This document shows, one piece after another, positions 5,420-24,957 of a stretch of 64,000 nucleotides of DNA (positions are counted from its first letter, which is position 1; the number at the start of each line of letters is the position of its first letter). The notes beneath the pieces are model-generated. The model did not search any database, had not been told where the DNA came from, and saw only the letters and a program-made list of their open reading frames with translations. The translations under genes and the position numbers were made by a program. The stretch lies in the IMG/VR virus record IMGVR_UViG_3300045988_171102, one strand, 5' to 3'. This stretch comes from a virus.

Positions 5420-6447
5420 TCCTCGCCTTCGTAATTTTCGCCCCAGTCATCACTGTCGCTTGTTGTTTTAAATTCACTATTTGCCTTATCATTAGCTTTC
5501 TGCTTGTAAAGAGCTTCCTCAATAACTTCTTCTGAATAAGTATCTGTGTCAATTGTATCTTTGTCAGCACCATTGATAATCAGTTTACGAACAGTTGGAG
5601 CTTTCACTTTTTCCATCTCAATGCCAACACCCCAAGCATCATCAACTTCAACTTCTTCAACAGGTGTTTCGACAGAAAAATAACCTCCTACTTTAATCAT
5701 GGTATAAGGCTTAAGCATTTTCTTAAAAGTCTGAGCCATTTTGCTGTTCTGAACATACATTTCGATATCTTCAATAGAGTTATAATTAACTACTTTAGCC
5801 GACACAATAAATTCATTATCGTTTTCCTTATTTTTTTCAATACCCATAAAAATAATTTCCTGCTTAAACATATTTATAGGCTTAAATTTTTCATCGTCAA
5901 AATCAATAGGTTTCTGACACAGCGATACTTGATCAAAGTCAAAAGAAGTGTTGTGTTTGCCATTATATGTAGAAAACTTAATATCGCCTTTCACAAATAC
6001 ATTATCATTATCCTGAAGATGTTCGGAAATTTCCTTACAAGCATCAAAAGCAACAAGTGTCTTTTTATTATTCACAATCTTACCGTCATCATCAACAATT
6101 TTTTCAACTCCACAATGAACGCCAACAAGATTGTATTCTTCAGATGGAGCTTTATGTCTGTCTGCCCAAGCAACTTTCTGTGTATCACTTACACGCTTAC
6201 CATTAACAACCTCTGACTTGTTAAAATATACATAATCTTGCTGAGAACCAGTCTGCTGAACATAGGCAACTGAATCAGGCTGATACATTACGCCAAAATT
6301 AACTCTACGCCAACTCTTACCAGTGTTTGATGACTTACCTTCTTTATAAAATCCATCTTTCTCAACTCCAGTAACTTTACCCATTATCTGAAATTTACCT
6401 TTTGTCTGTCTTAATCCAAGTCCTTTATTACTCATTTGTTGTATCAA
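5410..6447 (-). CDS. putative ssDNA-binding protein
   Basis: Acidic C-terminal tail (DSDDWGENYEGEEWD) typical of SSBs. Position between the recombinase-like ATPase and small genes. No strong motif, so tentative. Confidence 0.4.
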   Translation of the reverse strand: MIQQMSNKGLGLRQTKGKFQIMGKVTGVEKDGFYKEGKSSNTGKSWRRVNFGVMYQPDSVAYVQQTGSQQDYVYFNKSEVVNGKRVSDTQKVAWADRHKAPSEEYNLVGVHCGVEKIVDDDGKIVNNKKTLVAFDACKEISEHLQDNDNVFVKGDIKFSTYNGKHNTSFDFDQVSLCQKPIDFDDEKFKPINMFKQEIIFMGIEKNKENDNEFIVSAKVVNYNSIEDIEMYVQNSKMAQTFKKMLKPYTMIKVGGYFSVETPVEEVEVDDAWGVGIEMEKVKAPTVRKLIINGADKDTIDTDTYSEEVIEEALYKQKANDKANSEFKTTSDSDDWGENYEGEEWD

Positions 6448-9015: not shown

Positions 9016-9663
9016 TTATTCTTCAGTATCTACAGCCGCTACAAATTCACCATCTTTTAAAGTATAATAAACACCTGCTTTAATTTTATCTCCATCAACT
9101 CTTGTCATCTTTGCACCAACAAATTCCCATCCTTTTTTATTGCTAACATACCGCCATTCAGCACAGACGATATGAGAACCAATACAGCCTTTTGCCTTAC
9201 TTAGATACCCCCAAGCAACAGCCACCCCTGTTGTGTTCTCAACTGAGGACGCTCCTTTATAGCCTGTGGCTGAGGACGCTCCTTTATAGCCTGTAGCTGA
9301 GGACGCTCCGTAATCTCCTGTGGCATTCTGCATTGTGACGGTTTTGGATTTGGTAAAATCTATTGCAGCCTGAACAAGTCCAGCTATGCTTAATTTTGCA
9401 CCAATTTTAATCTTAGTTGATGCAATTTTTGAATCTCTATTATCAGAACCGGATGAAAATTCACCTGTCTGTTCAACTTCATGATATACACTTGTATTTG
9501 GTGAATAATAACCTAAACAATCTAAAGGGTATTCACATGCATGAAATCCTTCATTACAAACAACAGCTTTACTTGTTTCATATTCTTTGCCTTCTTTATA
9601 CTGAAAGCCTCTGCAAGTCATATCTTTATTAAAACCTTTGTAACTTTTAACTACTTTTGACAT
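9016..9663 (-). CDS. hypothetical protein with internal ATG[YD][KY]GASS repeats
   Basis: ORF in track. N-terminal KGFNKDMTCRGFQYKEGKEY...GFHAC block. Three 9-aa repeats. Confidence 0.55.
   Translation of the reverse strand: MSKVVKSYKGFNKDMTCRGFQYKEGKEYETSKAVVCNEGFHACEYPLDCLGYYSPNTSVYHEVEQTGEFSSGSDNRDSKIASTKIKIGAKLSIAGLVQAAIDFTKSKTVTMQNATGDYGASSATGYKGASSATGYKGASSVENTTGVAVAWGYLSKAKGCIGSHIVCAEWRYVSNKKGWEFVGAKMTRVDGDKIKAGVYYTLKDGEFVAAVDTEE
9243..9323. repeat. 3 x 27-bp tandem repeat inside the 9016..9663 CDS
   Basis: CTGAGGACGCTCCTTTATAGCCTGTGG occurs twice nearly identically. A third copy is diverged. Confidence 0.8.
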
Positions 9664-10099: not shown

Positions 10100-10175
10100 T
10101 GGTGACACAGAAGAGATTTGAACTCTCACTTTACAGATTTTAAGTCTGCTGTCTCTGCCGTTGGACTACTGTGTC
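10100..10175 (-). tRNA. tRNA with anticodon UAA (Leu by anticodon) but a short variable loop; CCA encoded
   Basis: Hand-folded cloverleaf. Acceptor GACACAG/CTGTGTC; anticodon stem GCAGA/TCTGT with loop CTTAAAA; T arm GAGAG-TTCAAAT-CTCTT; A73; CCA. Confidence 0.65.
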
Positions 10176-10336
10176 ATATCCGGTATTATGTAGACTAAAA
10201 GGCTGATGGAACAACAGTAAAAGGACATCGTCGTTCAACACCGAACTGAGCAAATATTCAGTATAAAGTCTTTCTACAAATTAAGTAGATTTTTATTTGA
10301 ATCGCTAAGATTATAAAATCACTACACAATACCGTT

Positions 10337-10411
10337 TGGCTGAGCAGGCGGGAATTGAACCCACGATACTGGAGTCAAAGTCCAGTGCCTTAACCGCTTG
10401 GCGACTGCTCA
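10337..10411 (-). tRNA. tRNA-Gln (anticodon UUG), CCA encoded
   Basis: Hand-folded. Acceptor TGAGCAG/CTGCTCA with U1:A72 and G73 as in bacterial tRNA-Gln; anticodon stem CTGGA/TCCAG with loop CTTTGAC; T arm GTGGG-TTCAATT-CCCGC. Confidence 0.8.
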
Positions 10412-10511
10412 ATATATAAAACCGTAAGCAAAAGAATTTCTGAAAAACTTACGGTTGATTTTCACAACTAATAAACCAACTAAAAAGGAGATAAGTTAAA
10501 TATATATAAAA

Positions 10512-11408
10512 TCAGACTTCCAAGCCAACACCATATTTTTCAACAAAATCATCAATTTCCTTTTGTTGAATATTAATATAGGCAGCCGTTATTTTTTGAC
10601 TGGAATGACCAAGAAATTCTGATGTAATTTGAAGTTCTTTGACATCCGTTGTATGATCTACAACATTTCGGGCAATTGTCTTTCGTAAGCTATGTGTTCC
10701 ATAATGTTTACAAAACATTTGTGGATTTTTACTATGCAGTTTTTTTGTTAATCTCTGAATGACTTTTCTCATTCCATCCACTGTATTTGGTTCATCTGGA
10801 GTGAAGCACTTAGGAAACAGCCAATCTGACATTTTTAATTTACAATTTCCATGAAGTTGATTATATTTTCCTAATTCACGGAAATAATATTGTAAAGCTG
10901 ATTTAGCAAAAGAGTTAATCTTCACATGAGCATATTTCTTAGTTTTTTGCTCATGTAAATTAATGTATTCCCCAACACTTATCCCATTAGAACTGGTTTG
11001 CAAAACATCTCCAACCTTTAAACTTACAATATCACCTGCTCTTCGAGCTGTATTTACACTCAATACTATATAAAGGTAATTTCTCAAACTGTTTATATAA
11101 TATTTTGAAGGTTTTAAAAGCTCTTCGAGCATGAGCTTTACTTCATTGGGCGTGAAAGCATCAGTGCTTTTATCAGTAATTTTCTTTGTAACTAAATAAT
11201 TATTGTCTACTTCAATACAATCAATTAAATTTTCGTTATCGTTAAAATATAATTCATCCTCATTGTCCATTTGTTCAAGATAACGATTTATTTCAACAAC
11301 ATTATCAAGATAACTTTTCCCGCTTATTTCAGTATTATCATTTGTAACAATGTTAATATCGGGAACATATTGCTCCTTAAATCCAATCAAAGCCAATTGC
11401 TGACTCAT
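10512..11408 (-). CDS. int: tyrosine recombinase / phage integrase
   Basis: Catalytic signature ARRAGD (R), HSLRKT (HxxR) and LGHSS...AAY (H...Y). Confidence 0.85.
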   Translation of the reverse strand: MSQQLALIGFKEQYVPDINIVTNDNTEISGKSYLDNVVEINRYLEQMDNEDELYFNDNENLIDCIEVDNNYLVTKKITDKSTDAFTPNEVKLMLEELLKPSKYYINSLRNYLYIVLSVNTARRAGDIVSLKVGDVLQTSSNGISVGEYINLHEQKTKKYAHVKINSFAKSALQYYFRELGKYNQLHGNCKLKMSDWLFPKCFTPDEPNTVDGMRKVIQRLTKKLHSKNPQMFCKHYGTHSLRKTIARNVVDHTTDVKELQITSEFLGHSSQKITAAYINIQQKEIDDFVEKYGVGLEV

Positions 11409-12526: not shown

Positions 12527-12928
12527 TCACCTATGAAGATTGCTGTATAGATGTACAAAACAATTTAATCCCATCATGTTAATAGCACAAAGGCGAGCGT
12601 CTTTTAATTCACTCTCAGTCAGTTGACCAATCTTATATCCTAATTGATTTTGATTAATTGTAGTAATCTGTTCCCCTAAGATTATCGACTCACTTCTCAA
12701 ACCATTTATGTCATTTGGTTTTATTTTCATATGCGTAGGTAAATCTTTCTTATGTTTAGAAGTCAACGGCATAACCGTAACAATACCACTATAATAATTA
12801 CCGATATCGTTACTAACAACAACGACTGGTCTTAATCCTGTTTGCAGAGAGCCTTGACCGCTTAAATTTGCGAAATATACATCTCCGCACTTAATATTCT
12901 TTACACTAACATTTTCTGCGACTCTCAT
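12527..12928 (-). CDS. MazF/PemK-family endoribonuclease toxin
   Basis: GDVYFANL...GLRPVVVVSND...VTVMPLTS...SIILGEQITTINQNQL matches the PemK/MazF pattern. SD AGGAAGGAG upstream. Confidence 0.8.
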   Translation of the reverse strand: MRVAENVSVKNIKCGDVYFANLSGQGSLQTGLRPVVVVSNDIGNYYSGIVTVMPLTSKHKKDLPTHMKIKPNDINGLRSESIILGEQITTINQNQLGYKIGQLTESELKDARLCAINMMGLNCFVHLYSNLHR

Positions 12929-13136
12929 CGCTAATCTCCTTCCTTTTGTACTTATTTTGAATTTACATAAGTTTTAGTGAGTGGATAATACCCTCACCAT
13001 TCGGCAGCAAAATCTACCGTTATAATCCATTCACTAATTATCAAACTAAATCAATGAAGTTGCTACCGAAATAAATGACATTTGACCGTCATTTATTCGT
13101 CGCTTTTATTCTTCTATTGTTTATGCTCATATGATA

Positions 13137-13682
13137 TCATTTATTGTTGCCGTTGTCAATAGTTTTATTAAAAAAAATTGAAAAAAATTCAAATTTATTT
13201 TTGCAACTATGTAATTTAAGTGCGTTTATAATTTTCAAGCTCTCTGTCTGTACATCCTTCAACATTCCGATCCTATCACCTATCAAGTAAAACCCCATAG
13301 AAACATACGCTAAACAATCTTCATTGTTCGGATCTGAAGGAAGATAGCCTATTACATATGCCTTTTTTTCTGTTCCTAACTCTATACAAGTAAATTTACG
13401 GCATTTAATATATTTACAAGCTGTTAAGTAGTCTTGTTCTGATACGAAATCAGCAAGTGAACACTCGCCTATGTAGACTAAATTCTTAAAATCATAATTA
13501 CAAAAATCAGTAAAACATAAATCTATTAACCGTGTTTCAGTTTCAGTCTTACACCTGCAATTCATTTCAAGGTCATTAGTTATTTGTGGCTTGCAAGCCT
13601 GATTTCGAGGAATAATCATTCCATTATCAAGGTAAATGCTCCAGTTCCAACATTCATTGAATAAGTTAATTGTGTTGTTCAT
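13137..13682 (-). CDS. hypothetical protein
   Basis: ORF in track. Confidence 0.5.
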   Translation of the reverse strand: MNNTINLFNECWNWSIYLDNGMIIPRNQACKPQITNDLEMNCRCKTETETRLIDLCFTDFCNYDFKNLVYIGECSLADFVSEQDYLTACKYIKCRKFTCIELGTEKKAYVIGYLPSDPNNEDCLAYVSMGFYLIGDRIGMLKDVQTESLKIINALKLHSCKNKFEFFSIFFNKTIDNGNNK

Positions 13683-13788
13683 TATACCCGCTTCCTTTTA
13701 TTTTAAAAATAGAACACTTGTTCGATTACTTAATTTAATTATAATCAAAAAATTCTATATTGTCAATGAGTAAACCAACATTTATCAA

Positions 13789-13941
13789 TCAAATCTTTGG
13801 CTCATCATCATTTCTGTTTTTAATATATTGATTTAAATATTGTTTATTATTTTTTTTGATCTTATGGTTTGCATAATTTTCTTTACTCTTTTCCCACAGA
13901 ATTAAGATAATAAACCCTATAATACACACTAAAGTTATCAT
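13789..13941 (-). CDS. small membrane protein (50 aa)
   Basis: Own translation MITLVCIIGFIILILWEKSKENYANHKIKKNNKQYLNQYIKNRNDDEPKI. GGTGATGA SD upstream. Confidence 0.4.
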   Translation of the reverse strand: MITLVCIIGFIILILWEKSKENYANHKIKKNNKQYLNQYIKNRNDDEPKI

Positions 13942-13956
13942 GATTCATCACCATAT

Positions 13957-14136
13957 TTATATTAGGTTTAATTCTTTAGTTAAGCGTAAAGCTATTACTG
14001 ATTTAAAATTTCTTACAGGTACAGATACAGTATTCATTCCATTGCCATATATCGCATGATTACCATTCTGCCTAAGAAAACTATACCCATTATTCCTTAA
14101 CTTTCTTAAAAAGGCTCTTTCATTTACCTGTTTCAA
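13957..14136 (-). CDS. HicA-like mRNA interferase toxin (59 aa, TTG start)
   Basis: Own translation (M)KQVNERAFLRKLRNNGYSFLRQNGNHAIYGNGMNTVSVPVRNFKSVIALRLTKELNLI. HicA pattern L.k.Gf...rq.GsH..y. The TTG start overlaps the upstream TGA stop (TTGA). Below the ORF-track cutoff. Confidence 0.6.
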   Translation of the reverse strand: MKQVNERAFLRKLRNNGYSFLRQNGNHAIYGNGMNTVSVPVRNFKSVIALRLTKELNLI

Positions 14137-14363
14137 TTATAAATTTCCTCCAATTCTTGAATAGTCGATGACAAATCATCAAGTAAATCCTCAAAGTTAT
14201 CATAGGACTCACAGTTCTCTTCATATCTTTCTGAGTTTTGCAAATTTTCAGGAACAGAATCTAAATACTCTTCTTCTTCGGAAAGAATATTTTCTAACTT
14301 ACCAATGCATATATTAATAGAATCTATTTCTACCTTAATTTTCTTTCTTCTTAAATTGTTCAT
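14133..14363 (-). CDS. small acidic protein (PENLQNSERYEE motif)
   Basis: ORF in track; translationally coupled to the HicA-like ORF. Confidence 0.55.
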   Translation of the reverse strand: MNNLRRKKIKVEIDSINICIGKLENILSEEEEYLDSVPENLQNSERYEENCESYDNFEDLLDDLSSTIQELEEIYN

Positions 14364-14388
14364 ATATATTCATTTACCTTTCACTATT

Positions 14389-14418
14389 ATTGTACAAAAT
14401 TTTCCTATCCAAATTCAA
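14389..14418 (-). promoter_or_regulatory. sigma70-like promoter for the 14363 operon
   Basis: On the minus strand: TTGAAT, 18-nt spacer, TACAAT with TG immediately upstream. Back-to-back with the plus-strand promoter at 14441. Confidence 0.4.
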
Positions 14419-14475
14419 CCCACAAAATATGGAAATAACATTGACAAAATTCTCCAAATAGTGTATCATTATGTT

Positions 14476-14577
14476 AGGCTTAGAAAATGGGTAGGCTAAC
14501 GCTGACCATCTTTCGATAGCTTACTTGGTATAGACATCACCAGATTTTCGCAGGTCGAAGTGATGTCTATTTTTTTA
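14476..14577 (+). ncRNA. candidate small RNA A (about 100 nt), antisense orientation to the surrounding operons
   Basis: Promoter TTGACA (14441-14446), 17-nt spacer, TATCAT (14464-14469). Terminator ATAGACATCAC...GTGATGTCTAT (14530-14570) followed by T7. No plausible ORF. TSS is estimated. Confidence 0.45.
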
Positions 14578-14594
14578 TGTATAAAACCTTTGTT

Positions 14595-14879
14595 TTAAAC
14601 ATCTTCCGATACATAATGTTCGTACCGTAATCTATTTAACAATTCTTCAAGCGTAATTGATAGGGCGTATTCTTTGTCTGTCATACCGCCTATAATAGAT
14701 TTTTTAAGACTAAATCTGCTTACTATCTGTATGTCAGGCGAATTTGCAACAGAGCGAAACGAAATAATAACATAACATCTCAAATCTTTACCATAGAGCC
14801 GAATGTCATTTTCTACTCTTTCTATCATCTCGGTATGATTAACTTCAATGGGTTTATCGTTATTGTCAAACCACGGCAT
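14595..14879 (-). CDS. hypothetical protein
   Basis: ORF in track; overlaps the upstream gene end. Confidence 0.5.
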   Translation of the reverse strand: MPWFDNNDKPIEVNHTEMIERVENDIRLYGKDLRCYVIISFRSVANSPDIQIVSRFSLKKSIIGGMTDKEYALSITLEELLNRLRYEHYVSEDV

Positions 14880-15084
14880 TTAATACCCTCCTTATTACTG
14901 TCTGAGCATAAGCGTCAGTTTTAGCTTTCTCGTCAACATATTCCACCTCGGAATTAGCAAGATTGATTTTGGCAATTACTTTACCCTCTTCGTTGGAACT
15001 TGTTGTTCTCCAAGCGTCAATATACATTATATTTTTATCATAATCAATAAAGTTGCTTCTAATTTCTCTATATTTACTTTGCAT
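14866..15084 (-). CDS. hypothetical protein
   Basis: ORF in track. Confidence 0.5.
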   Translation of the reverse strand: MQSKYREIRSNFIDYDKNIMYIDAWRTTSSNEEGKVIAKINLANSEVEYVDEKAKTDAYAQTVIRRVLNAVV

Positions 15085-15164
15085 AAAGCTACATTCCTCC
15101 TTATTTAAGATAATTTTTTAAAAAAGTATTGACTTTTTTAAAATTGCGATGTATTATAATGCTG

Positions 15165-15252
15165 TGTAAGGTTTTGTTATTTACTTACGCAAGCATAAAC
15201 TATTAGTTTTTTAAGCGGAAAAGACTCAGTCAAAAGCTGAGTCTTTTCTGTT
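15165..15252 (+). ncRNA. candidate small RNA B (about 90 nt)
   Basis: Promoter TTGACT (15129-15134), 17-nt spacer, TATTAT (15152-15157). Hairpin AAAAGACTCAG-TCAAAAG-CTGAGTCTTTT (15219-15247), then CTGTT. The U-tract is weaker than in A and C. Confidence 0.35.
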
Positions 15253-15302
15253 ATACAAAAAAAAGCTTGACTGTAAACTGAAAAAGTAGTATCATATAAG
15301 TG

Positions 15303-15396
15303 TGGAAGTTTGTTTTTTAATTTCTACTATGGTAGATTAGTTTTTTTATCCTTTCTTCCGTACCTCGCACACTGTTATACAGTGTGCGTTTTTTTT
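15303..15396 (+). ncRNA. candidate small RNA C (about 95 nt)
   Basis: Promoter TTGACT (15267-15272), 17-nt spacer, TATCAT (15290-15295). Terminator CGCACACTG-TTATA-CAGTGTGCG (15366-15388) followed by T8. Confidence 0.45.
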
Positions 15397-15532
15397 ATTG
15401 TCAACACACTAATACTTTGGGATTCACTTATTATAAAGCAACATTACCGCCTTTAAACTGTATTCTTGTCCTGTTTTTGTACTGCATTACCTTGTATTCA
15501 GGATAATCTGATTGATGACTTAAACAATCTCT

Positions 15533-16153
15533 TTATTTGGATTTGGTGTCTTTGTCTATGCCTTTCATATAACCATCAATCCACACTACCTGTCCTGTCT
15601 GATATCTTCTGAAATGTCCTCTAACTTGGAATACACCTTCAGGACTGCGATGATGACCGACCGATGTAGCATAAAGCTGATTCTTAAACGGTCTGAATAC
15701 GATAGTCTTATCTTGATTATCGTTTTTACCAATAGCGGAAAACTCTCGTTTATCTCGATCAAGATAATTGCCATACCATAGGAAAGCATTAGCGTTGATA
15801 TATGAATCAATCATGTATTCTATTGCCTCAAGACAGTCATCAAGCATTTGTTGACTGTCAATATTGCGTTCAACAATTTGGTAATCTATCTTTAAATCGC
15901 AATCGCTTTGTTCAGGTGATTTGTGAAACAATCCTTTGGCGATTTGTGTCTTATTGTATTTTAAAGAGAATTTTTGTTTTGGGATATTATTCTTAACACA
16001 AGCCGTAACATACAGTATGTATTCGGGACATTCTTTGATTATTACTTCACATTTCTCAAAATACGGTTTCGCAGACATAACCTTGTCCATAATGTTGCGA
16101 TTCCATTGTTGAAAGTATGCGTAAGTGTTTTCGTCAATACAAATTAGATTCAT
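15533..16153 (-). CDS. hypothetical protein
   Basis: ORF in track. Confidence 0.5.
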   Translation of the reverse strand: MNLICIDENTYAYFQQWNRNIMDKVMSAKPYFEKCEVIIKECPEYILYVTACVKNNIPKQKFSLKYNKTQIAKGLFHKSPEQSDCDLKIDYQIVERNIDSQQMLDDCLEAIEYMIDSYINANAFLWYGNYLDRDKREFSAIGKNDNQDKTIVFRPFKNQLYATSVGHHRSPEGVFQVRGHFRRYQTGQVVWIDGYMKGIDKDTKSK

Positions 16154-16190
16154 AAGGTTGGATTCAACATCCTTTCAATCTTACTCTTCA

Positions 16191-16631
16191 TCACTTATAG
16201 AGAATTTCATAAAAATCTTCTGTATAGGTGCCGTCAGCCTTATCTTGCTCTTCGTACTTTTCAAGTGCCTTGACTGCATCTTCGTGAGTGTCAAAAGAGT
16301 CAATTAACTCTTTTGTTCCTGCGTAAGCAATCCAATATCTTGGCGGATTCTCACTAAGAATAATAACCAAGATTTGAGCATTCTTGTCACCGAACCAGTC
16401 TTCAAAATCTGCGGTAACATCATCATTGGCAATGACGGTCATACCGTACTCTTCCTCATCCATAAGTTCTTCATACACAACTTCTTCATTTTCATTGTAC
16501 TGGTCATTCTCTATATCGTCAGATGTATAAATAAAATCACTGTGAACACGGTGTGTGAAGTCTGTAAATCTGTAGATTTCGCATTCAACATATTGTCCTT
16601 TGTAATGTTCTTTAACTTCTTTGATTGTCAT
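16191..16631 (-). CDS. acidic hypothetical protein
   Basis: Start moved to the internal ATG (MTIKEVKEHY), which follows SD AAAGGAGAA. Confidence 0.5.
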   Translation of the reverse strand: MTIKEVKEHYKGQYVECEIYRFTDFTHRVHSDFIYTSDDIENDQYNENEEVVYEELMDEEEYGMTVIANDDVTADFEDWFGDKNAQILVIILSENPPRYWIAYAGTKELIDSFDTHEDAVKALEKYEEQDKADGTYTEDFYEILYK

Positions 16632-17301
16632 AATGTTTTCTCCTTTTTGTTGTTTCTTTGTTTTTTGCAATTAATAATAATTTATCAATGATTAAATTTT
16701 CAATCCAACGAGATAGTACCTTTTTTCCACTCTCCAAACTTTCAATTGTTTGCTGTCTCATTCCAAAAATTTCAGACATTTCTTCTTGTGTTAATTCCGC
16801 ACACAAGCGAGCTTCCTTTATCGTCATGCGTTTAGAAGGTTCAAAAATCTCATCAATAGATACAGGAAGATTAAATTTTAAAAGAGTTGAAACTTTATAC
16901 GCTGAGTCTAATAAAGGTATTTTCTTATGATGATAATAACAAAATGCAGTTGAATGAGAAATACCATATTTTTTCTCAACCTGCATATAAGTTTCGTCAA
17001 GTGCATCAAATGCCTGACTAAAAGCAAAATAAAACTTATGTTCAATATCTTTTTGAAATTGAATTCTTTCATCGGCACTTACAAATCTTCTGCCATGTAA
17101 TACCTCTAAAAGGACTACAGCCGTACTATAAGACATCTTCTTGTTATTGTTACTTTCTACGAAATAAAAACCCATTGTTGAAGGATAATATTGACTCCTT
17201 TTAGCTATTTCATAATAAGTTAAATACTGTTCTTTGATTTTTGTTTTACAATATTGAACAAAAATATCACTTACAGGCAATTTATTATTTTCTTTGTTCA
17301 T
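16612..17301 (-). CDS. XRE-family helix-turn-helix transcriptional regulator
   Basis: C-terminal ARLCAELTQEEMSEIFGMRQQTIESLESGKK matches the Cro/CI-type HTH pattern. Confidence 0.6.
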   Translation of the reverse strand: MNKENNKLPVSDIFVQYCKTKIKEQYLTYYEIAKRSQYYPSTMGFYFVESNNNKKMSYSTAVVLLEVLHGRRFVSADERIQFQKDIEHKFYFAFSQAFDALDETYMQVEKKYGISHSTAFCYYHHKKIPLLDSAYKVSTLLKFNLPVSIDEIFEPSKRMTIKEARLCAELTQEEMSEIFGMRQQTIESLESGKKVLSRWIENLIIDKLLLIAKNKETTKRRKHYDNQRS

Positions 17302-21724: not shown

Positions 21725-21997
21725 TTAAATCTCCCTATACATTTTCTTTGCGGTTGGTACGCCATACTCTTGAACAAGATTCCAAAGCACATCCAACCCT
21801 TGTATATCTATATGCAAAATTTCTGTCGAATCTACAACACCTTGCAACCAAGCTTGTGCTGTTTCATCTGCAATATTCATGAATTTTCCATATATCTTTT
21901 TACCAGTATCGGATTCTAAAAGAACAGGTAAATCTTTGGAATAAATTTCTTTCCTTGTATATGGTTGTTTCTTTATGATACTTTTTGATCTCCCCAT
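21725..21997 (-). CDS. small hypothetical protein
   Basis: ORF in track; overlaps the end of the methylase-helicase gene. Confidence 0.5.
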   Translation of the reverse strand: MGRSKSIIKKQPYTRKEIYSKDLPVLLESDTGKKIYGKFMNIADETAQAWLQGVVDSTEILHIDIQGLDVLWNLVQEYGVPTAKKMYREI

Positions 21998-24957
21998 CTT
22001 ATTACATAACCTTCTTCCGTTTTTTCTTTATACATGAGGTTCTGCAACATATTACTATCCACTCCAAAACGTTCATATAATTCATCGTCTGTCAAATCCT
22101 GATCCTTCATAAACAGATTTAATTTGTCTTTTACAAGAATCATTTTTAACAGATTGCTTTCAATACTATTCTCGTAAGTTACAAAATACACTTGCTTGAA
22201 TTCCGTTGAAGTATAACGAATAAAGCGGAAATAATACTGACTCATGCTGGAGTTGTTCCAGTGCAATTCTGGAATAATACACTTATTCACAAAATCAATA
22301 TTCATACTTGCAGATAAGCTCTGCTGTGTGCTTATTAGAATTCCGTTTGTTGTTTCTTTTAACTCTTTGACAATTTTCTTTCTCTGTTTCAATGTAGTTT
22401 CATTTCCAGTAATCACAAATACAGGTCTACCCGGAAATGCTTTTTTGATTTCCTTTGCATATGCATCTACTACTGAAATATGACGCACACCAATAGCAAC
22501 TCTTTCATCAGAAAATTCGTCTAAAAGTGATAATACAGTTTTGAATTTTTCCGGCATTATCGACTGATTGTACTCTCTCAACATCTGAGGCGCAGCGCAA
22601 ATCTTCAAAAGTGCAAGCAACTGATTCAAAATTTTCAACATTGCATCTTTCCGGCTGTTCCCAGTTTTCGCAAACAGATATTCCATTTTATAGAACTCAT
22701 CCAATGCAACCTTATACAGACGTTTCTCTTCTTCTCCCATTTCACAAGCAATCTGTATAATCTCATAAAGCTGTTTGCCAGTAATTTCTTCAAATGTACG
22801 TGTGATAATCGTCTTATCAATCATCTGTTTCAAAATGTCTGCATTAAGAATATCTTGTGTGAACTGAGATACGCCAAATACAGTGATTTTCTCTGGAATA
22901 TGACTCGCTGCAAATAACTTACTACCCTTACGATATGCTGGATATGGCTGTAAAAAATATTCATTTATCCGGTTTTCCAGTTCTCCATCTTTGTTGCGTT
23001 CCATAATATACTCACATTCAGACAGCATATTGATAGAATTGTTGTACAATAATTCAAACTGAGGATAAATTTCAGTGATATTATTCCTTGTGCTTGTACC
23101 CGTCATCAGTGTTTTATACTTCAGCCGGCGAAAAGCATTTAATACGGCTTTTGTCCGTTTACTATCCTGATTACTCATATTATCCGATTCGTCAAAAATC
23201 AAAACGGCTTTCTGGCAGATTGATTTTACATATCGCTTGATGAATTTATGATATTTACACATCATATTTAAAGTGATAATTACAAATTGACCTTCTTTGA
23301 TATTTTGAATATCTGCAAGGTTTCCAATCATAACAAAATCAATACCGTACTGATCCAATACATCCTGCCAATTGTTCTTGATTGAGATTGCCGTACTCAC
23401 AATAAATACATTTTTCACATGATCGTGCTGCAAACGATATTTACCTATTGCAATTCCGGCGAATGTTTTACCGCTTCCCTGTTCCCACTGTATGAAACTA
23501 TATGGTTTCTGAATAAACAGATTCAGATCCGCTTTCTGAGCATCATTCAGCTTTATAGTTCTTTCATCATCCGTCAATGTAAACTCATCAAGCCACTTTG
23601 CTATTTTTTTGTTTGGTTGCATTTCAGAAAATGGCATATTCTGGATATCATACATCTTTCGCTTTTTATTCACGATCTTATCAATCCATTTTGACTGAAA
23701 ATGCCCCATTGAAAAGCCTTGCAACACAACATCGTTTATAGATGTAAAATCGCCATTATACTCAAATGTATAATTGTTTTTAATAATTCTACCAGTTCTA
23801 TCAAGTTTTGGATTCTGTGAACATAACGCCATTTTTAAATGCTTAATAACATCTTTCGGCTTGATTTTAAGTTGTTCCCATTCGTCCCATTTGATATGAT
23901 CCGGTTTTTTCTGTGTCTTATACCTATTGACATATTCACAACATTCTGCATACTGGCTGCATGTTTTCGGATTTCGTTTGATATCATACAGGAGTTTCTC
24001 AACCTTAAAACTCCACGCTTCATCGTCTTTACTATTTCTTACGGTTTCCAGAAAAATCTTGTTTTTAATCTGTTCTCTTTCTTCTGTAATAGGCTTTAAA
24101 TACTGCTCCCATACTTCATCGGAAGTAACACCGGAAAGTATCTCTGTACTATATGGAACTTCTTTCGTATATTCAGATTTTTTCTGAAAGAACACTATTT
24201 TGGTCTTGTAGTTCTCAACGCCCAAATGCTTAAAAGTATTCTTGTCAAGTTCTACTTGGCAGATAAAATTAAAATGCTCATTCATTCCGTCAATCATGCC
24301 ACCATCAGAGAAACTGTCAGCACAAAACGACATAGGCACGATAATAGCCATAATTCCGGCTGGCTTTAACAGTTCCGCAGCTTTCAGACAATAATAATAT
24401 TCTGACAAATAGTTACTGTCATCTTTTCTCCATCTCAGATTATACGGTGGATTTCCCAGAACATAATCAAAAGTAATTTTCGGCTCATAAAAACGAATAT
24501 CTGTATTTTCCAGCTTTGCATCTGGATAAAGGTATTTTGCCACTCTGTACGGCTTCCCGTCTAATTCGCAACCGTAAAAATTCGATTCAACCGGCGCACA
24601 ACTAATAAATGAACCATGTCCACAAGTAAGATCTGCTATCAAATCAGTATTTGAAATATGTAAACAATTATAAATCCATTCAACCAGCTTATAAGGTGTA
24701 AAGAACTGTCCTTGCTCAATATCTGCTTTCGCTCTCTGATAATCATAGTAACTATCATAGTTGTTGAACTCTAAACCATGAAGCCCACCTAATCCAGTAT
24801 ATGCATTGAAAATATCATCTTTTGAAATACCTGTTTCTACTTCTGGCAAATCGTTATTCACAATATATTCAATTTTTGTATTGATGTCTTCCCTCATTTT
24901 CTGTGGGATTACTTCATTTGTACATTTATACTTCATGACTTGTATATCTCCATTCAA
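21973..24957 (-). CDS. fusion of N6-adenine DNA methyltransferase (N-terminal) and SNF2-family helicase (C-terminal)
   Basis: Methyltransferase motif I DLTCGHGSF and motif IV GNPPYNLRW. Helicase Walker A QGSGKTFAG, motif II LIFDESDN and SNF2-type motif III LMTGTSTRNN. Confidence 0.8.
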   Translation of the reverse strand: MNGDIQVMKYKCTNEVIPQKMREDINTKIEYIVNNDLPEVETGISKDDIFNAYTGLGGLHGLEFNNYDSYYDYQRAKADIEQGQFFTPYKLVEWIYNCLHISNTDLIADLTCGHGSFISCAPVESNFYGCELDGKPYRVAKYLYPDAKLENTDIRFYEPKITFDYVLGNPPYNLRWRKDDSNYLSEYYYCLKAAELLKPAGIMAIIVPMSFCADSFSDGGMIDGMNEHFNFICQVELDKNTFKHLGVENYKTKIVFFQKKSEYTKEVPYSTEILSGVTSDEVWEQYLKPITEEREQIKNKIFLETVRNSKDDEAWSFKVEKLLYDIKRNPKTCSQYAECCEYVNRYKTQKKPDHIKWDEWEQLKIKPKDVIKHLKMALCSQNPKLDRTGRIIKNNYTFEYNGDFTSINDVVLQGFSMGHFQSKWIDKIVNKKRKMYDIQNMPFSEMQPNKKIAKWLDEFTLTDDERTIKLNDAQKADLNLFIQKPYSFIQWEQGSGKTFAGIAIGKYRLQHDHVKNVFIVSTAISIKNNWQDVLDQYGIDFVMIGNLADIQNIKEGQFVIITLNMMCKYHKFIKRYVKSICQKAVLIFDESDNMSNQDSKRTKAVLNAFRRLKYKTLMTGTSTRNNITEIYPQFELLYNNSINMLSECEYIMERNKDGELENRINEYFLQPYPAYRKGSKLFAASHIPEKITVFGVSQFTQDILNADILKQMIDKTIITRTFEEITGKQLYEIIQIACEMGEEEKRLYKVALDEFYKMEYLFAKTGNSRKDAMLKILNQLLALLKICAAPQMLREYNQSIMPEKFKTVLSLLDEFSDERVAIGVRHISVVDAYAKEIKKAFPGRPVFVITGNETTLKQRKKIVKELKETTNGILISTQQSLSASMNIDFVNKCIIPELHWNNSSMSQYYFRFIRYTSTEFKQVYFVTYENSIESNLLKMILVKDKLNLFMKDQDLTDDELYERFGVDSNMLQNLMYKEKTEEGYVIRWGDQKVS

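What the first reader, a model, noticed from the sequence alone, without database searches (positions are those of the whole stretch)
14441..15396. Three plus-strand promoter / short transcript / terminator units embedded in a minus-strand gene block
All flanking genes are on the minus strand. Within about 1 kb there are three near-consensus plus-strand promoters with exact 17-nt spacers: TTGACA-N17-TATCAT at 14441, TTGACT-N17-TATTAT at 15129 and TTGACT-N17-TATCAT at 15267. Each is followed 90-100 nt later by a hairpin. For units A and C the T-run lies only on the plus strand (T7 and T8). The inserts contain no credible ORF; the best is a 15-codon frame that starts inside the -10 of unit B. 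Unit A is back-to-back with the minus-strand promoter of the acidic-protein/HicA-like operon. These look like dedicated small-RNA genes. Possible roles are antisense or roadblock regulators, RNA antitoxins for the nearby partnerless toxins, or immunity RNAs.
Basis: seen in the sequence. Interest (0 to 1): 0.7.

Follow-up and report, generated by a model that had tools for sequence, protein, structure and literature searches.

The report
Phage small RNAs aimed at Cas12a
A gut phage carries three small-RNA genes: one copies the handle that the bacterial Cas12a CRISPR enzyme uses to hold its guide RNA (a known anti-CRISPR trick), one appears built to pair with and block the start of the host's cas12a message (not described before, as far as I could find), and one is strongly conserved but of unknown function.

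Summary
Three plus-strand promoter / ~95-nt transcript / terminator units sit in a minus-strand gene block of a ~100-kb human-gut phage.

- **Unit C (15267-15396)** is a solitary type V-A CRISPR repeat. Its handle AAUUUCUAC-UAUG-GUAGAU is followed by a 23-nt spacer-like segment and a terminator. This is the architecture of the known Cas12a RNA anti-CRISPRs (Racr/Cracr). About 35 viral contigs in at least 3 lineages carry it, with a compensatory A-U to G-C change in the handle stem.
- **Unit B (15129-15252)** always lies just upstream of a C unit. It has no Cas12a handle. Its single-stranded centre is perfectly antisense (14 nt, 20 bp with wobble) to the Shine-Dalgarno/start codon of cas12a in Ruminococcus sp. 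AF37-3AC-type bacteria. That species' V-A array holds a spacer matching, with a TTTA PAM, a phage that carries the same A-B-C module. I read B as an antisense anti-cas12a sRNA; this is an inference.
- **Unit A (14441-14576)** is found in every relative of this lineage in which the site is held and evolves about five times slower than neighbouring third codon positions. Its target is unknown.

The antitoxin and immunity roles it suggested do not.

The parts
14441..14469 (+). Unit A promoter (TTGACA-N17-TATCAT)
   Evidence: The -35 hexamer is invariant, the -10 is TATCAT or TATTAT and the spacing is fixed, while the spacer sequence varies across 31 sequences of the lineage.
14476..14576 (+). Unit A transcript (~100 nt): imperfect 5' hairpin 14476-14522, linker ACUUGGUAU, terminator hairpin 14531-14569, then U7
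   Evidence: Fold -31.5 kcal/mol, z -3.35. Nucleotide diversity is 0.020, against 0.103 at third codon positions of the adjacent 94-aa gene. Found next to the 94-aa gene in every related locus that holds the site, and otherwise only in this lineage.
15129..15157 (+). Unit B promoter (TTGACT-N17-TATTAT)
   Evidence: Kept in relatives and replaced by another consensus promoter in the second lineage.
15164..15190 (+). Unit B 5' hairpin (GUGUAAG / CUUACGC, 13-nt U-rich loop)
   Evidence: Fold. Kept in all 10 aligned distinct variants (of 11 found), with three one-sided consistent changes and no disruptions.
15193..15212 (+). Unit B seed: GCAUAAACUAUUAG plus UUUUUU, antisense to the host cas12a Shine-Dalgarno and start codon
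   Evidence: 14-nt perfect complement to L344 5991-6004; the ATG is at 6001. Duplex energy is -25.8 kcal/mol, the best of 28,410 host windows, and 0 of 2000 shuffled seeds reach it.
15213..15252 (+). Unit B terminator hairpin with interrupted U tract
   Evidence: Conserved in all B variants.
15267..15295 (+). Unit C promoter (TTGACT-N17-TATCAT)
   Evidence: Four different promoters in the C family all place the -10 hexamer 8-9 nt before GGAAG.
15300..15337 (+). Unit C pseudo-repeat, with the Cas12a 5' handle AAUUUCUACUAUGGUAGAU at 15319-15337
   Evidence: Only match in the window. It differs only in the 4-nt loop from the Moraxella V-A repeat and from the host array repeat. The handle stem is 100% paired, with a compensatory A-U to G-C change.
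15338..15360 (+). Unit C spacer-like segment UAGUUUUUUUAUCCUUUCUUCCG
   Evidence: The core TTTTTATCCTTTCTTCC is conserved in about 35 viral contigs. No PAM-flanked target was found.
15366..15396 (+). Unit C intrinsic terminator (10-bp stem, then T8)

Best explanation
The three units are separate small-RNA genes of a temperate-looking, ~100-kb human-gut phage whose lineage is attacked by the type V-A (Cas12a) CRISPR system of Ruminococcus sp. AF37-3AC-type bacteria.

**Unit C** is a crRNA mimic. The transcript starts at a pseudo-repeat whose last 19 nt are the Cas12a handle. Cas12a should bind and trim it, which yields handle + UAGUUUUUUUAUCCUUUCUUCCG, a guide with no target that I could find. 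Made from a strong promoter, it occupies Cas12a in place of phage-targeting crRNAs (the Racr mechanism).

**Unit B** is a trans-acting antisense sRNA: a 5' hairpin, a single-stranded seed and a terminator. The seed pairs with the Shine-Dalgarno sequence and AUG of the host cas12a mRNA and should block its translation. This would cancel the rise in cas12a transcription that the host's CreR autorepression circuit produces when Cas12a is titrated away.

**Unit A** is a structured sRNA under strong purifying selection and core to this phage lineage. I commit to a trans-acting regulatory or anti-defence RNA whose partner is not in the sequence I could reach.

Shown by computation: the anatomy, homology, conservation, covariation, complementarity and the host spacer match. 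Inferred: transcription, Cas12a loading, translational repression and the B-C synergy.
For: **Unit C**
- The handle is at 15319-15337 and is the only TCTAC-N(3-6)-GTAGAT match in the 64-kb window, against 0.14 expected by chance.
- It is identical outside the loop to the MbCas12a repeat listed in the Racr paper's supplement and to the host array repeat GTTTAATAACCCTATATAATTTCTACTATTGTAGAT.
- The exact handle occurs in 28 viral stretches, one copy each; in most of them a promoter-like sequence precedes it and a terminator-like hairpin follows (read by eye).
- The C family is in about 35 IMG/VR contigs, in at least 3 lineages, with 4 promoters and 3 terminators.
- The handle stem is 100% paired, with a TCTAC/GTAGA to TCTGC/GCAGA double change.
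- The architecture (pseudo-repeat + spacer-like segment + rho-independent terminator) is that of CracrVA1. RacrVA1-3 were shown to inhibit MbCas12a.
- No ORF of 500 aa or more in the window carries a Cas12a domain in Pfam.

**Host link**
- Cas12a cluster P0011 is named Ruminococcus sp. AF37-3AC.
- Its array spacer CAAGCATATACATCACCACCTTTCAAG matches L224 at 26 of 26 positions, with a TTTA PAM. L224 carries A, B and C at 93% identity to window 14353-15483.

**Unit B**
- It shows 14-nt perfect antisense complementarity to cas12a at -10 to +4 in eight contigs of that host (L344-L351). The following U6 can pair with GGAGAG by G-U and A-U pairs.
- This is the best of 28,410 windows in 9 host loci, at -25.8 kcal/mol against a mean of -6.8 and sd 2.6. 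None of 2000 shuffled seeds reaches it.
- It is specific: -4 to -10 kcal/mol against seven other cas12a start regions.
- The two seed positions that vary between B variants (T to C in L042; T to C in L110, L118 and L188) both turn G-U pairs into G-C pairs with the host Shine-Dalgarno sequence.
- Every B unit found lies immediately upstream of a C unit.
- Rationale from the literature: a non-targeting Cas12a-binding RNA raised cas12a transcription by about 66% and lost anti-CRISPR activity.

**Unit A**
- See the parts list.
Against: - No transcript data exist for any of the three units.
- C's spacer-like segment is conserved over about 21 nt in all lineages. Pure titration does not explain that, so an unfound target (Cracr mode) is possible.
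- C often occurs without B (L162, L175, L182, L186, L189, L191, L199, L215). B is therefore not required for C.
- B also resembles the host CreR: the 5' part of the pseudo-repeat aligns with z = 3.7, and TATTAGTTTT equals the first 10 nt of the CreR spacer. B may be a decayed CreR mimic whose match to the start codon region is partly fortuitous, because TATTAG is shared by both readings.
- The L337 strain has one mismatch in the B target. Variant B' (L190) has a different seed that pairs less cleanly.
- The matching spacer targets a relative (L224), not the window itself.
- For A, no target, partner or homologue outside the lineage was found.
Confidence: 0.6

Rival explanations
1. Unit C is a Cracr rather than a plain Racr. 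Its spacer-like segment would guide Cas12a, without cleavage, to a PAM-flanked site in a cas12a promoter or another defence promoter of a host that I did not retrieve.
For: - The architecture is identical to CracrVA1.
- About 21 nt of the spacer-like segment are conserved across lineages, while promoters and terminators differ.
- Host CreRs with exactly this logic were recovered here as positive controls. L337 and L344 have TTTA|TATTAGTTT, L339 has the same, and L005 has a 13-nt match.
- C's pseudo-repeat is 28 of 29 identical to the L005 CreR.
Against: - No TTTV-flanked match of 9 nt or more was found in the window, in 19 genome loci, within about 6 kb (±1.5 kb for two of the loci) of cas12a in the identified host and three other Cas12a clades, or in the collection scans.
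- The T run at guide positions 4-10 varies from 5 to 7 T among close relatives. That shifts the register of everything behind it.
- Against the host CreR spacer it matches only 2 PAM-proximal nt.
Confidence: 0.3
2. Unit B is a degenerate duplicate of a CreR-mimicking Cracr that has lost its Cas12a handle. Under this reading it is a relic, and its complementarity to the cas12a start region is coincidental.
For: - B aligns with the host CreR better than any of 500 shuffles (z = 3.7).
- TATTAGTTTT equals the first 10 nt of the CreR spacer and 9 nt of its PAM-flanked target.
- B resembles C at its 5' end.
- A tandem duplication of C exists in L168.
- The cassette may have spread recently, so conservation need not mean selection.
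Against: - The 8 nt GCAUAAAC next to TATTAG continue the antisense match exactly where a handle should be.
- Variant substitutions break the would-be guide seed but improve pairing with the Shine-Dalgarno sequence.
- The consensus promoter, 5' hairpin and terminator are intact in all 11 variants and in two lineages.
- The top-ranked interaction falls exactly on the start codon of the host's cas12a.
Confidence: 0.3
3. Unit C is a one-spacer mini-CRISPR. It would be a real crRNA that borrows host Cas12a to cut a competing phage or plasmid.
For: - For Cas12a, repeat + spacer + terminator is sufficient to make a crRNA.
- One viral locus holds a two-repeat mini-array with this handle (L046).
Against: - All non-handle hits to the conserved 17-mer in IMG/VR lack a PAM and look like chance.
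- The closest hit, L197, lies inside a coding region behind CGTC.
Confidence: 0.07
4. Unit A acts in cis. Its convergent transcription and perfectly complementary RNA would insulate or process read-through from the minus-strand 225/72/94-aa operon.
For: - A faces the operon, and its hairpin lies 25 nt beyond the 94-aa stop codon.
- On the minus strand the hairpin has no U tract, so read-through is likely.
- A sits at the border between a conserved and a variable module.
Against: - The whole RNA, loops included, evolves at the rate of second codon positions. That is more constraint than a roadblock or generic antisense needs.
- Its G-U pairs make the structure specific to the plus strand.
Confidence: 0.3
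5. The promoters are chance consensus matches, and the hairpins are only stability or processing elements of the minus-strand mRNA.
For: Promoter-like sites are not enriched in the region: 33 found against 35.7 expected.
Against: - The hexamers and their spacing are conserved while the spacer sequence varies.
- C is found behind four promoters with the same distance to the pseudo-repeat.
- The Cas12a handle reads only on the plus strand.
- The U tracts are on the plus strand only.
Confidence: 0.04

Closest known systems
RacrVA1-3: type V-A RNA anti-CRISPRs, solitary repeat units (Camara-Wilpert et al. 2023, PMC10651486)
   Same: Unit C is a solitary Cas12a repeat in a phage. It sits just behind a promoter and is not associated with a cas gene or an array. 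The expected action is competition with crRNAs for Cas12a.
   Different: - The tested RacrVA RNAs are 34-36 of 36 identical to the Moraxella repeat. Unit C keeps only the 19-nt handle and has its own conserved 5' part.
- Unit C carries a conserved spacer-like segment, a terminator and a 7-9 bp closing helix.
- The host is a gut Ruminococcus.
CracrVA1: Cas-repressing RNA anti-CRISPR (Liu et al., bioRxiv 10.1101/2024.10.29.618823)
   Same: The architecture is the same: a single pseudo-repeat, a spacer-like segment and a rho-independent terminator. It also comes from an uncultured phage aimed at Ruminococcus Cas12a, and the handle has the same stem.
   Different: CracrVA1's spacer matches 10 nt of the cas12a promoter next to a TTTA PAM and mimics the host CreR. 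Unit C's does not do so in the host identified here. In this phage the job of keeping Cas12a levels down may fall to a separate RNA, unit B.
Host CreR: degenerate mini-CRISPR that autorepresses cas12a (bioRxiv 10.1101/2023.03.10.532045)
   Same: B and C are both similar in sequence to the CreR found 60 nt upstream of cas12a in L337 and L344. B shares the first 10 nt of its spacer.
   Different: CreR is a host gene and has a working handle. B lacks the handle. C lacks the matching spacer.
Base-pairing sRNAs that occlude a translation start (general class), and AcrVA2, a protein reported to lower cas12a mRNA (from my own knowledge, not checked here)
   Same: Unit B has the classical layout: a 5' hairpin, a single-stranded seed and an intrinsic terminator. 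The seed covers the Shine-Dalgarno sequence and the AUG. The aim, lowering Cas12a synthesis, is the same as AcrVA2's.
   Different: I found no report of a phage sRNA antisense to a cas mRNA in the searchable library. AcrVA2 is a protein.
rAcrVIA1 and rAcrIIA1: RNA anti-CRISPRs that mimic structure or a whole sgRNA
   Same: They are phage small RNAs in anti-CRISPR loci. They show that such RNAs can lack sequence similarity to repeats, which matters for unit A.
   Different: No similarity of unit A to any guide RNA could be shown.

Membership tests
Racr (solitary repeat unit RNA anti-CRISPR), type V-A: unit C | A CRISPR repeat-like sequence in a mobile element, solitary, with no array or cas genes | tested here: met
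   One handle match in the 64-kb window. The six ORFs of 500 aa or more are a methylase-helicase, a terminase, a tail protein and others, with no Cas12a domains.
Racr (solitary repeat unit RNA anti-CRISPR), type V-A: unit C | Sequence and stem-loop similarity to the cognate repeat | tested here: met
   The 19-nt handle differs only in the loop from the Mb repeat and the host array repeat. The stem is 100% paired with a compensatory change. The 5' 17 nt are not similar to the host repeat.
Racr (solitary repeat unit RNA anti-CRISPR), type V-A: unit C | A promoter within 250 bp upstream | tested here: met
   TTGACT-N17-TATCAT ends 4 nt before the pseudo-repeat. Four promoter types occur in the family.
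Racr (solitary repeat unit RNA anti-CRISPR), type V-A: unit C | Expressed as a small RNA, binds the Cas protein and inhibits interference | not testable with these tools
   This needs small-RNA sequencing and interference assays.
Cracr (Cas-repressing RNA anti-CRISPR), type V-A: unit C | Single pseudo-repeat + spacer-like segment + rho-independent terminator | tested here: met
Cracr (Cas-repressing RNA anti-CRISPR), type V-A: unit C | At least 9 PAM-proximal nt matching the host CreR spacer or a PAM-flanked site in a cas promoter | tested here: not met
   No such site was found in L337, L338, L339, L342, L344 or L345, in 19 genome loci or in the collection scans. Only hosts that I could retrieve were tested.
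Cracr (Cas-repressing RNA anti-CRISPR), type V-A: unit B | At least 9 PAM-proximal nt matching the host CreR spacer or its target | tested here: met
   TATTAGTTT(T) gives 9 nt against TTTA|TATTAGTTTATTG and 10 nt against the CreR spacer, in L337, L339 and L344.
Cracr (Cas-repressing RNA anti-CRISPR), type V-A: unit B | A Cas12a 5' handle (UCUAC-loop-GUAGAU) directly before the guide | tested here: not met
   B has UUUACUUACGCAAGCAUAAAC in that place. No canonical stem is present. B is therefore not filed as a Cracr.
Trans-acting antisense sRNA occluding a translation start: unit B | Own promoter and intrinsic terminator, with no ORF | tested here: met
   (sequence level only).
Trans-acting antisense sRNA occluding a translation start: unit B | An accessible seed complementary to the Shine-Dalgarno/AUG of a specific mRNA, beyond chance | tested here: met
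   14 nt Watson-Crick, 20 bp with wobble, -25.8 kcal/mol; rank 1 of 28,410 windows; 0 of 2000 shuffles reach it. The seed lies between the two hairpins of the fold.
Trans-acting antisense sRNA occluding a translation start: unit B | Seed-dependent repression of the target | not testable with these tools
   This needs a reporter fusion with compensatory mutations.
RNA antitoxin (type I or type III toxin-antitoxin): units A, B, C | Conserved linkage to a toxin gene; for type III, tandem repeats cut by the toxin | tested here: not met
   B and C occur in other phages without these toxins. A's toxin-side neighbour is replaced in relatives. There are no tandem repeats.
Any Rfam family: units A, B, C | A covariance-model match at or near the gathering score | tested here: not met
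   Only two tRNAs in the window reach threshold. The best hits in 14300-15500 are far below it.

The most novel reading that the evidence does not exclude
Unit B would be the first phage antisense small RNA found to silence a cas gene after transcription. It would sit on the ribosome-binding site and start codon of the host's cas12a mRNA and work alongside the Cas12a-titrating crRNA mimic (unit C). Together they would form a two-RNA answer to the host's CreR feedback, which otherwise makes more Cas12a when the protein is sequestered. Unit A would be a third, lineage-specific RNA counter-defence with an unknown partner.
Probability: 0.4. Interest if true: 0.8.

Novelty: new variant of a known kind. 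Interest (0 to 1): 0.62.

Why it matters
RNA anti-CRISPRs are a young class. All described members work by imitating a guide RNA.

- Unit C adds a widespread human-gut member of that class, with an identified host species and an actual host spacer against the phage lineage.
- If unit B works as predicted, phages also use ordinary antisense regulation against a cas mRNA. Searches based on repeat similarity cannot see such RNAs, so many intergenic promoter-hairpin-terminator units in phage accessory regions would deserve target prediction against host defence genes.
- The B-C pair also offers a direct test of how phages deal with CreR-type feedback in Cas12a hosts.
- The C scaffold belongs to the handle family (ErCas12a and Ruminococcus Cas12a) already used for genome editing.

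Tried and rejected
- **Rfam.** Gathering and E-value modes found nothing for A, B or C.
- **Annotated phage collection.** BLASTN of window 13000-17000 gave no match.
- **A as tracrRNA partner.** A-B, A-C and B-C duplexes are no better than shuffles.
- **B as a mimic of another CRISPR type's repeat, ending in AAAC.**
  - The 18-mer occurs only in B units, never in arrays.
  - It is absent from the SRUFinder tables.
  - Variant B' lacks that tail.
  - Rejected.
- **Covariance model of B.** It found no B-like unit next to other V-A solitary repeats or in host loci.
- **Targets inside the window.** None were found for A, B or C's spacer-like segment.
- **Search for C's target or a matching host CreR.**
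  - The genome scan gave single-copy CreR-like sites with other spacers.
  - The viral scan gave only chance hits; L197 is coding and has no PAM.
  - The metagenome scan stopped at 120 rows and was mostly chance, including a recurrent hit read by eye as RNase J-like coding sequence, without a PAM.
- **Neighbouring proteins (94, 72, 206 and 159 aa).** No Pfam or PDB-sequence match to known Acrs, and PHROGs gave only one family of unknown function (206-aa).
- **Energy scan of A against host loci.** The cheaper version showed nothing for A.
- **My first reading of B.** I first read B's variant substitutions as decay of a CreR-like guide. I revised this once the cas12a start region was compared.
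Full report
**1. The observation**

Each is followed after about 95 nt by a strong hairpin.

- Units A and C have clean plus-strand U runs. Unit B has an interrupted one.
- Plus-strand folds beat dinucleotide shuffles, with z = -3.35, -6.30 and -6.74.
- Consensus matches alone prove nothing here. The region holds 33 promoter-like sites against 35.7 expected from shuffles.
- There is no coding potential. The only ATG frame inside the A transcript is lost in relative L060, and the 15-codon frame in B starts upstream of the predicted transcription start.
- Rfam finds only two tRNAs in the window and nothing in this region.

**2. Unit C is a Cas12a repeat**

The C transcript begins GUGUGGAAGUUUGUUUUUU-AAUUUCUACUAUGGUAGAU.

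- Its last 19 nt (15319-15337) are the type V-A 5' handle. They differ only within the 4-nt loop from the Moraxella bovoculi repeat printed in the Racr paper's supplement and from the array repeat of the host found later.
- This is the only TCTAC-N(3-6)-GTAGAT match in the window, against 0.14 expected by chance.
- The six ORFs of 500 aa or more have no Cas12a domains.
- After the handle come 23 nt (UAGUUUUUUUAUCCUUUCUUCCG) and a textbook terminator.

The literature describes exactly this kind of element:
- Solitary repeat units act as RNA anti-CRISPRs, and three V-A examples inhibit MbCas12a (PMC10651486).
- CracrVA1 has a single pseudo-repeat, a spacer-like segment and a rho-independent terminator. 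It comes from an uncultured phage and steers Ruminococcus Cas12a onto its own promoter by mimicking the host regulator CreR (bioRxiv 10.1101/2024.10.29.618823).

**3. The C family**

- The exact handle occurs in 28 viral stretches, one copy each; in most of them a promoter-like sequence precedes it and a terminator-like hairpin follows (read by eye). It also occurs in 19 genome stretches, all but one (L007) with a single copy; some of the single-copy sites are host CreRs directly upstream of cas12a.
- The conserved core of C's spacer-like segment identifies about 35 IMG/VR contigs in at least three phage lineages. They use four different promoters and three terminators.
- All four promoters place the -10 hexamer 8-9 nt before the same GGAAG, so the RNA starts at the pseudo-repeat.
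- One sublineage has the stem TCUGC/GCAGA instead of UCUAC/GUAGA, a compensatory A-U to G-C change. The handle stem is 100% paired in 16 distinct variants.
- A further 7-9 bp helix between the 5' end of the transcript and the 3' end of the spacer-like segment is kept, with G-U, A-U and G-C at one pair. Its role is unknown.

**4. Where B and A occur**

- Unit B's core occurs only in B units, and every one lies immediately upstream of a C unit. This holds in the window's lineage and in a second lineage of 27-42 kb phages, where the cassette follows a DNA methylase or lysin-like gene.
- C frequently occurs without B.
- In the window's lineage, B, C and three minus-strand genes (206, 159 and 229 aa, the last with an HTH domain) form a ~2.2-kb accessory insert. 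It is present in a minority of relatives.
- Unit A lies next to the 94-aa gene in every related locus in which that site is held (31 of 33 loci, plus the terminator end in a truncated one), and is otherwise found only in contigs of this lineage (two of them known only from this scan).
- A's RNA has a nucleotide diversity of 0.020. The adjacent gene shows 0.103 at third, 0.038 at first and 0.013 at second codon positions. A's promoter spacer is more variable, at 0.067.
- The few changes in A's stems are mostly consistent with pairing (G-U to G-C or A-U), with one exception.
- The G-U pairs make the structure specific to the plus strand.

**5. The host**

C's spacer-like segment has no PAM-flanked target in the window, in the genome loci or in the viral and metagenome scans. 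I therefore fetched cas12a loci through protein searches.

- The very large cluster P0011 (4863 member sequences) is named Cas12a of Ruminococcus sp. AF37-3AC.
- Its loci from human gut samples consist of a CreR, cas12a and a short array. The repeat is GTTTAATAACCCTATATAATTTCTACTATTGTAGAT, and no adaptation genes were called.
- The CreR spacer TATTAGTTTTATTG has its PAM-flanked partial target (TTTA|TATTAGTTTATTG) about 50 nt upstream. This serves as an in-session positive control for the CreR logic.
- One of the five array spacers matches metagenome contig L224 at 26 of 26 positions, behind a TTTA PAM. L224 carries A, B and C at 93% identity to window 14353-15483.
- This species' V-A system therefore targets phages of the window's lineage. 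The protospacer lies in a part of L224 that the window does not share.

**6. What B is**

B carries TATTAGTTTT, the first 10 nt of that CreR spacer, and its 5' part aligns with the CreR pseudo-repeat (z = 3.7). However, the 3' half of the handle is replaced by GCAAGCAUAAAC, so B cannot be a canonical Cas12a guide.

The replaced stretch explains itself when compared with the cas12a mRNA:

- B nt 30-43 (15193-15206, GCAUAAACUAUUAG) is the perfect reverse complement of CUAAUAGUUUAUGC, which is positions -10 to +4 of cas12a in eight contigs of the host (L344-L351).
- The following U6 can pair with the Shine-Dalgarno sequence GGAGAG through A-U and G-U pairs. That gives a 20-bp duplex of -25.8 kcal/mol.
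- This is the best of 28,410 windows across nine host loci (mean -6.8, sd 2.6). None of 2000 shuffled seeds reaches it.
- Seven other cas12a start regions give -4 to -10 kcal/mol.
- The seed lies between B's conserved 5' hairpin and its terminator, which is the standard layout of a base-pairing sRNA.
- The two seed positions that differ among B variants both change G-U pairs into G-C pairs with the host Shine-Dalgarno sequence. In L042 the change lengthens the Watson-Crick run to 15 nt.
- Read as a Cas12a guide, these same changes would damage the seed.

I therefore favour B as an antisense repressor of cas12a translation. The relic-of-a-Cracr reading is the main rival, because TATTAG is common to both readings and the cassette may be young. 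I found no report of such an RNA in the searchable literature.

**7. How it most likely works**

- **C (inferred from the family):** Cas12a binds and trims it. The resulting complex has no target within about 6 kb of the host's cas12a, so C competes with real crRNAs as a Racr does.
- **The host response:** In hosts with CreR, titrating Cas12a relieves autorepression. A non-targeting CracrVA1 mutant raised cas12a transcription by about 66% and lost anti-CRISPR activity.
- **B (inferred):** Blocking cas12a translation would neutralise that response without needing Cas12a itself. That C occurs without B shows that B is an optional addition.
- **C as a Cracr:** C may still have an unfound target. 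Its ~21-nt conservation argues for one, while its variable T run and the failed searches argue against.
- **A:** I can show that it is a selected, plus-strand, non-coding RNA gene. I commit to a trans-acting role (about 0.45) over a cis-antisense insulator role (about 0.3), without a target.

**8. Verdict**

The roles it proposed are mostly wrong.
- C is a new member of a known kind (V-A Racr/Cracr).
- B, if it acts as predicted, is a new variant of RNA anti-CRISPR.
- A is unexplained.
- Nothing here rests on expression data. The decisive experiments are small-RNA sequencing, an interference assay with the Ruminococcus locus, and a compensatory-mutation reporter test for B.

Noticed in passing
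window 9243-9323: Three tandem 27-nt units (CTGAGGACGCTCCTTTATAGCCTGTGG), 85-96% alike. They lie just left of the tRNA genes.
   Followed up: no
window 10100-11408: tRNA-Leu(taa) and tRNA-Gln(ttg) on the minus strand, next to a 298-aa ORF read by eye as a tyrosine recombinase (not itself scanned; the 298-aa genes at the matching position in related loci carry Pfam Phage_integrase). The genes beyond it still look phage-like in relatives, so this is not a prophage end.
   Followed up: partly
window 12527-12928 and 13957-14363: A MazF/PemK-like toxin (Pfam E = 5e-25) has its own 11/12 promoter and no upstream antitoxin ORF of 30 aa or more. A HicA-like 59-aa gene is preceded by an acidic 76-aa ORF that may be its antitoxin.
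   Followed up: partly
L155 11086-12234: In one relative, an IS605-type TnpB gene (OrfB_IS605 / Cas12f1-like_TNB, 382 aa) is inserted about 450 nt from unit A.
   Followed up: no
L344-L351 (host loci), e.g. L345 5880-10400: The Ruminococcus sp. AF37-3AC-type V-A locus is minimal: CreR, cas12a and a 2-5-spacer array, with no cas1, cas2 or cas4 called. The CreR handle has a 7-nt loop in these strains and a 4-nt loop in L337.
   Followed up: partly
window 15300-15308 with 15355-15363; alignment A3: A 7-9 bp helix joins the 5' end of the C transcript to the 3' end of its spacer-like segment and is kept across the family (G-U, A-U and G-C at one pair). It could set the 3' end or mask the guide until processing.
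   Followed up: partly
window 15348-15359; L005: C's spacer-like segment (AUCCUUUCUUCC) resembles an anti-Shine-Dalgarno sequence. It pairs at -17.9 kcal/mol with the cas12a start region of L005, an uncultured Eubacterium whose CreR pseudo-repeat is 28 of 29 identical to C's.
   Followed up: partly
L168 1217-1589: A 260-bp tandem duplication gives two identical C units in one phage of the second lineage.
   Followed up: no
window 15533-17301: The accessory insert that brings B and C also carries three minus-strand genes: 206 aa, an acidic 159 aa and a 229-aa HTH protein. They have no match to known Acr or Aca families by sequence and are candidate protein anti-defence genes and their regulator.
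   Followed up: partly
window 21973-24957; L110/L175 upstream of B-C: The window encodes a 994-aa N6-methylase/helicase fusion. In the second phage lineage the B-C cassette sits directly after a gene whose product, read by eye from the DNA, looks like a DNA methylase (no domain scan was run on it), so anti-restriction and anti-CRISPR functions may be neighbours there.
   Followed up: no
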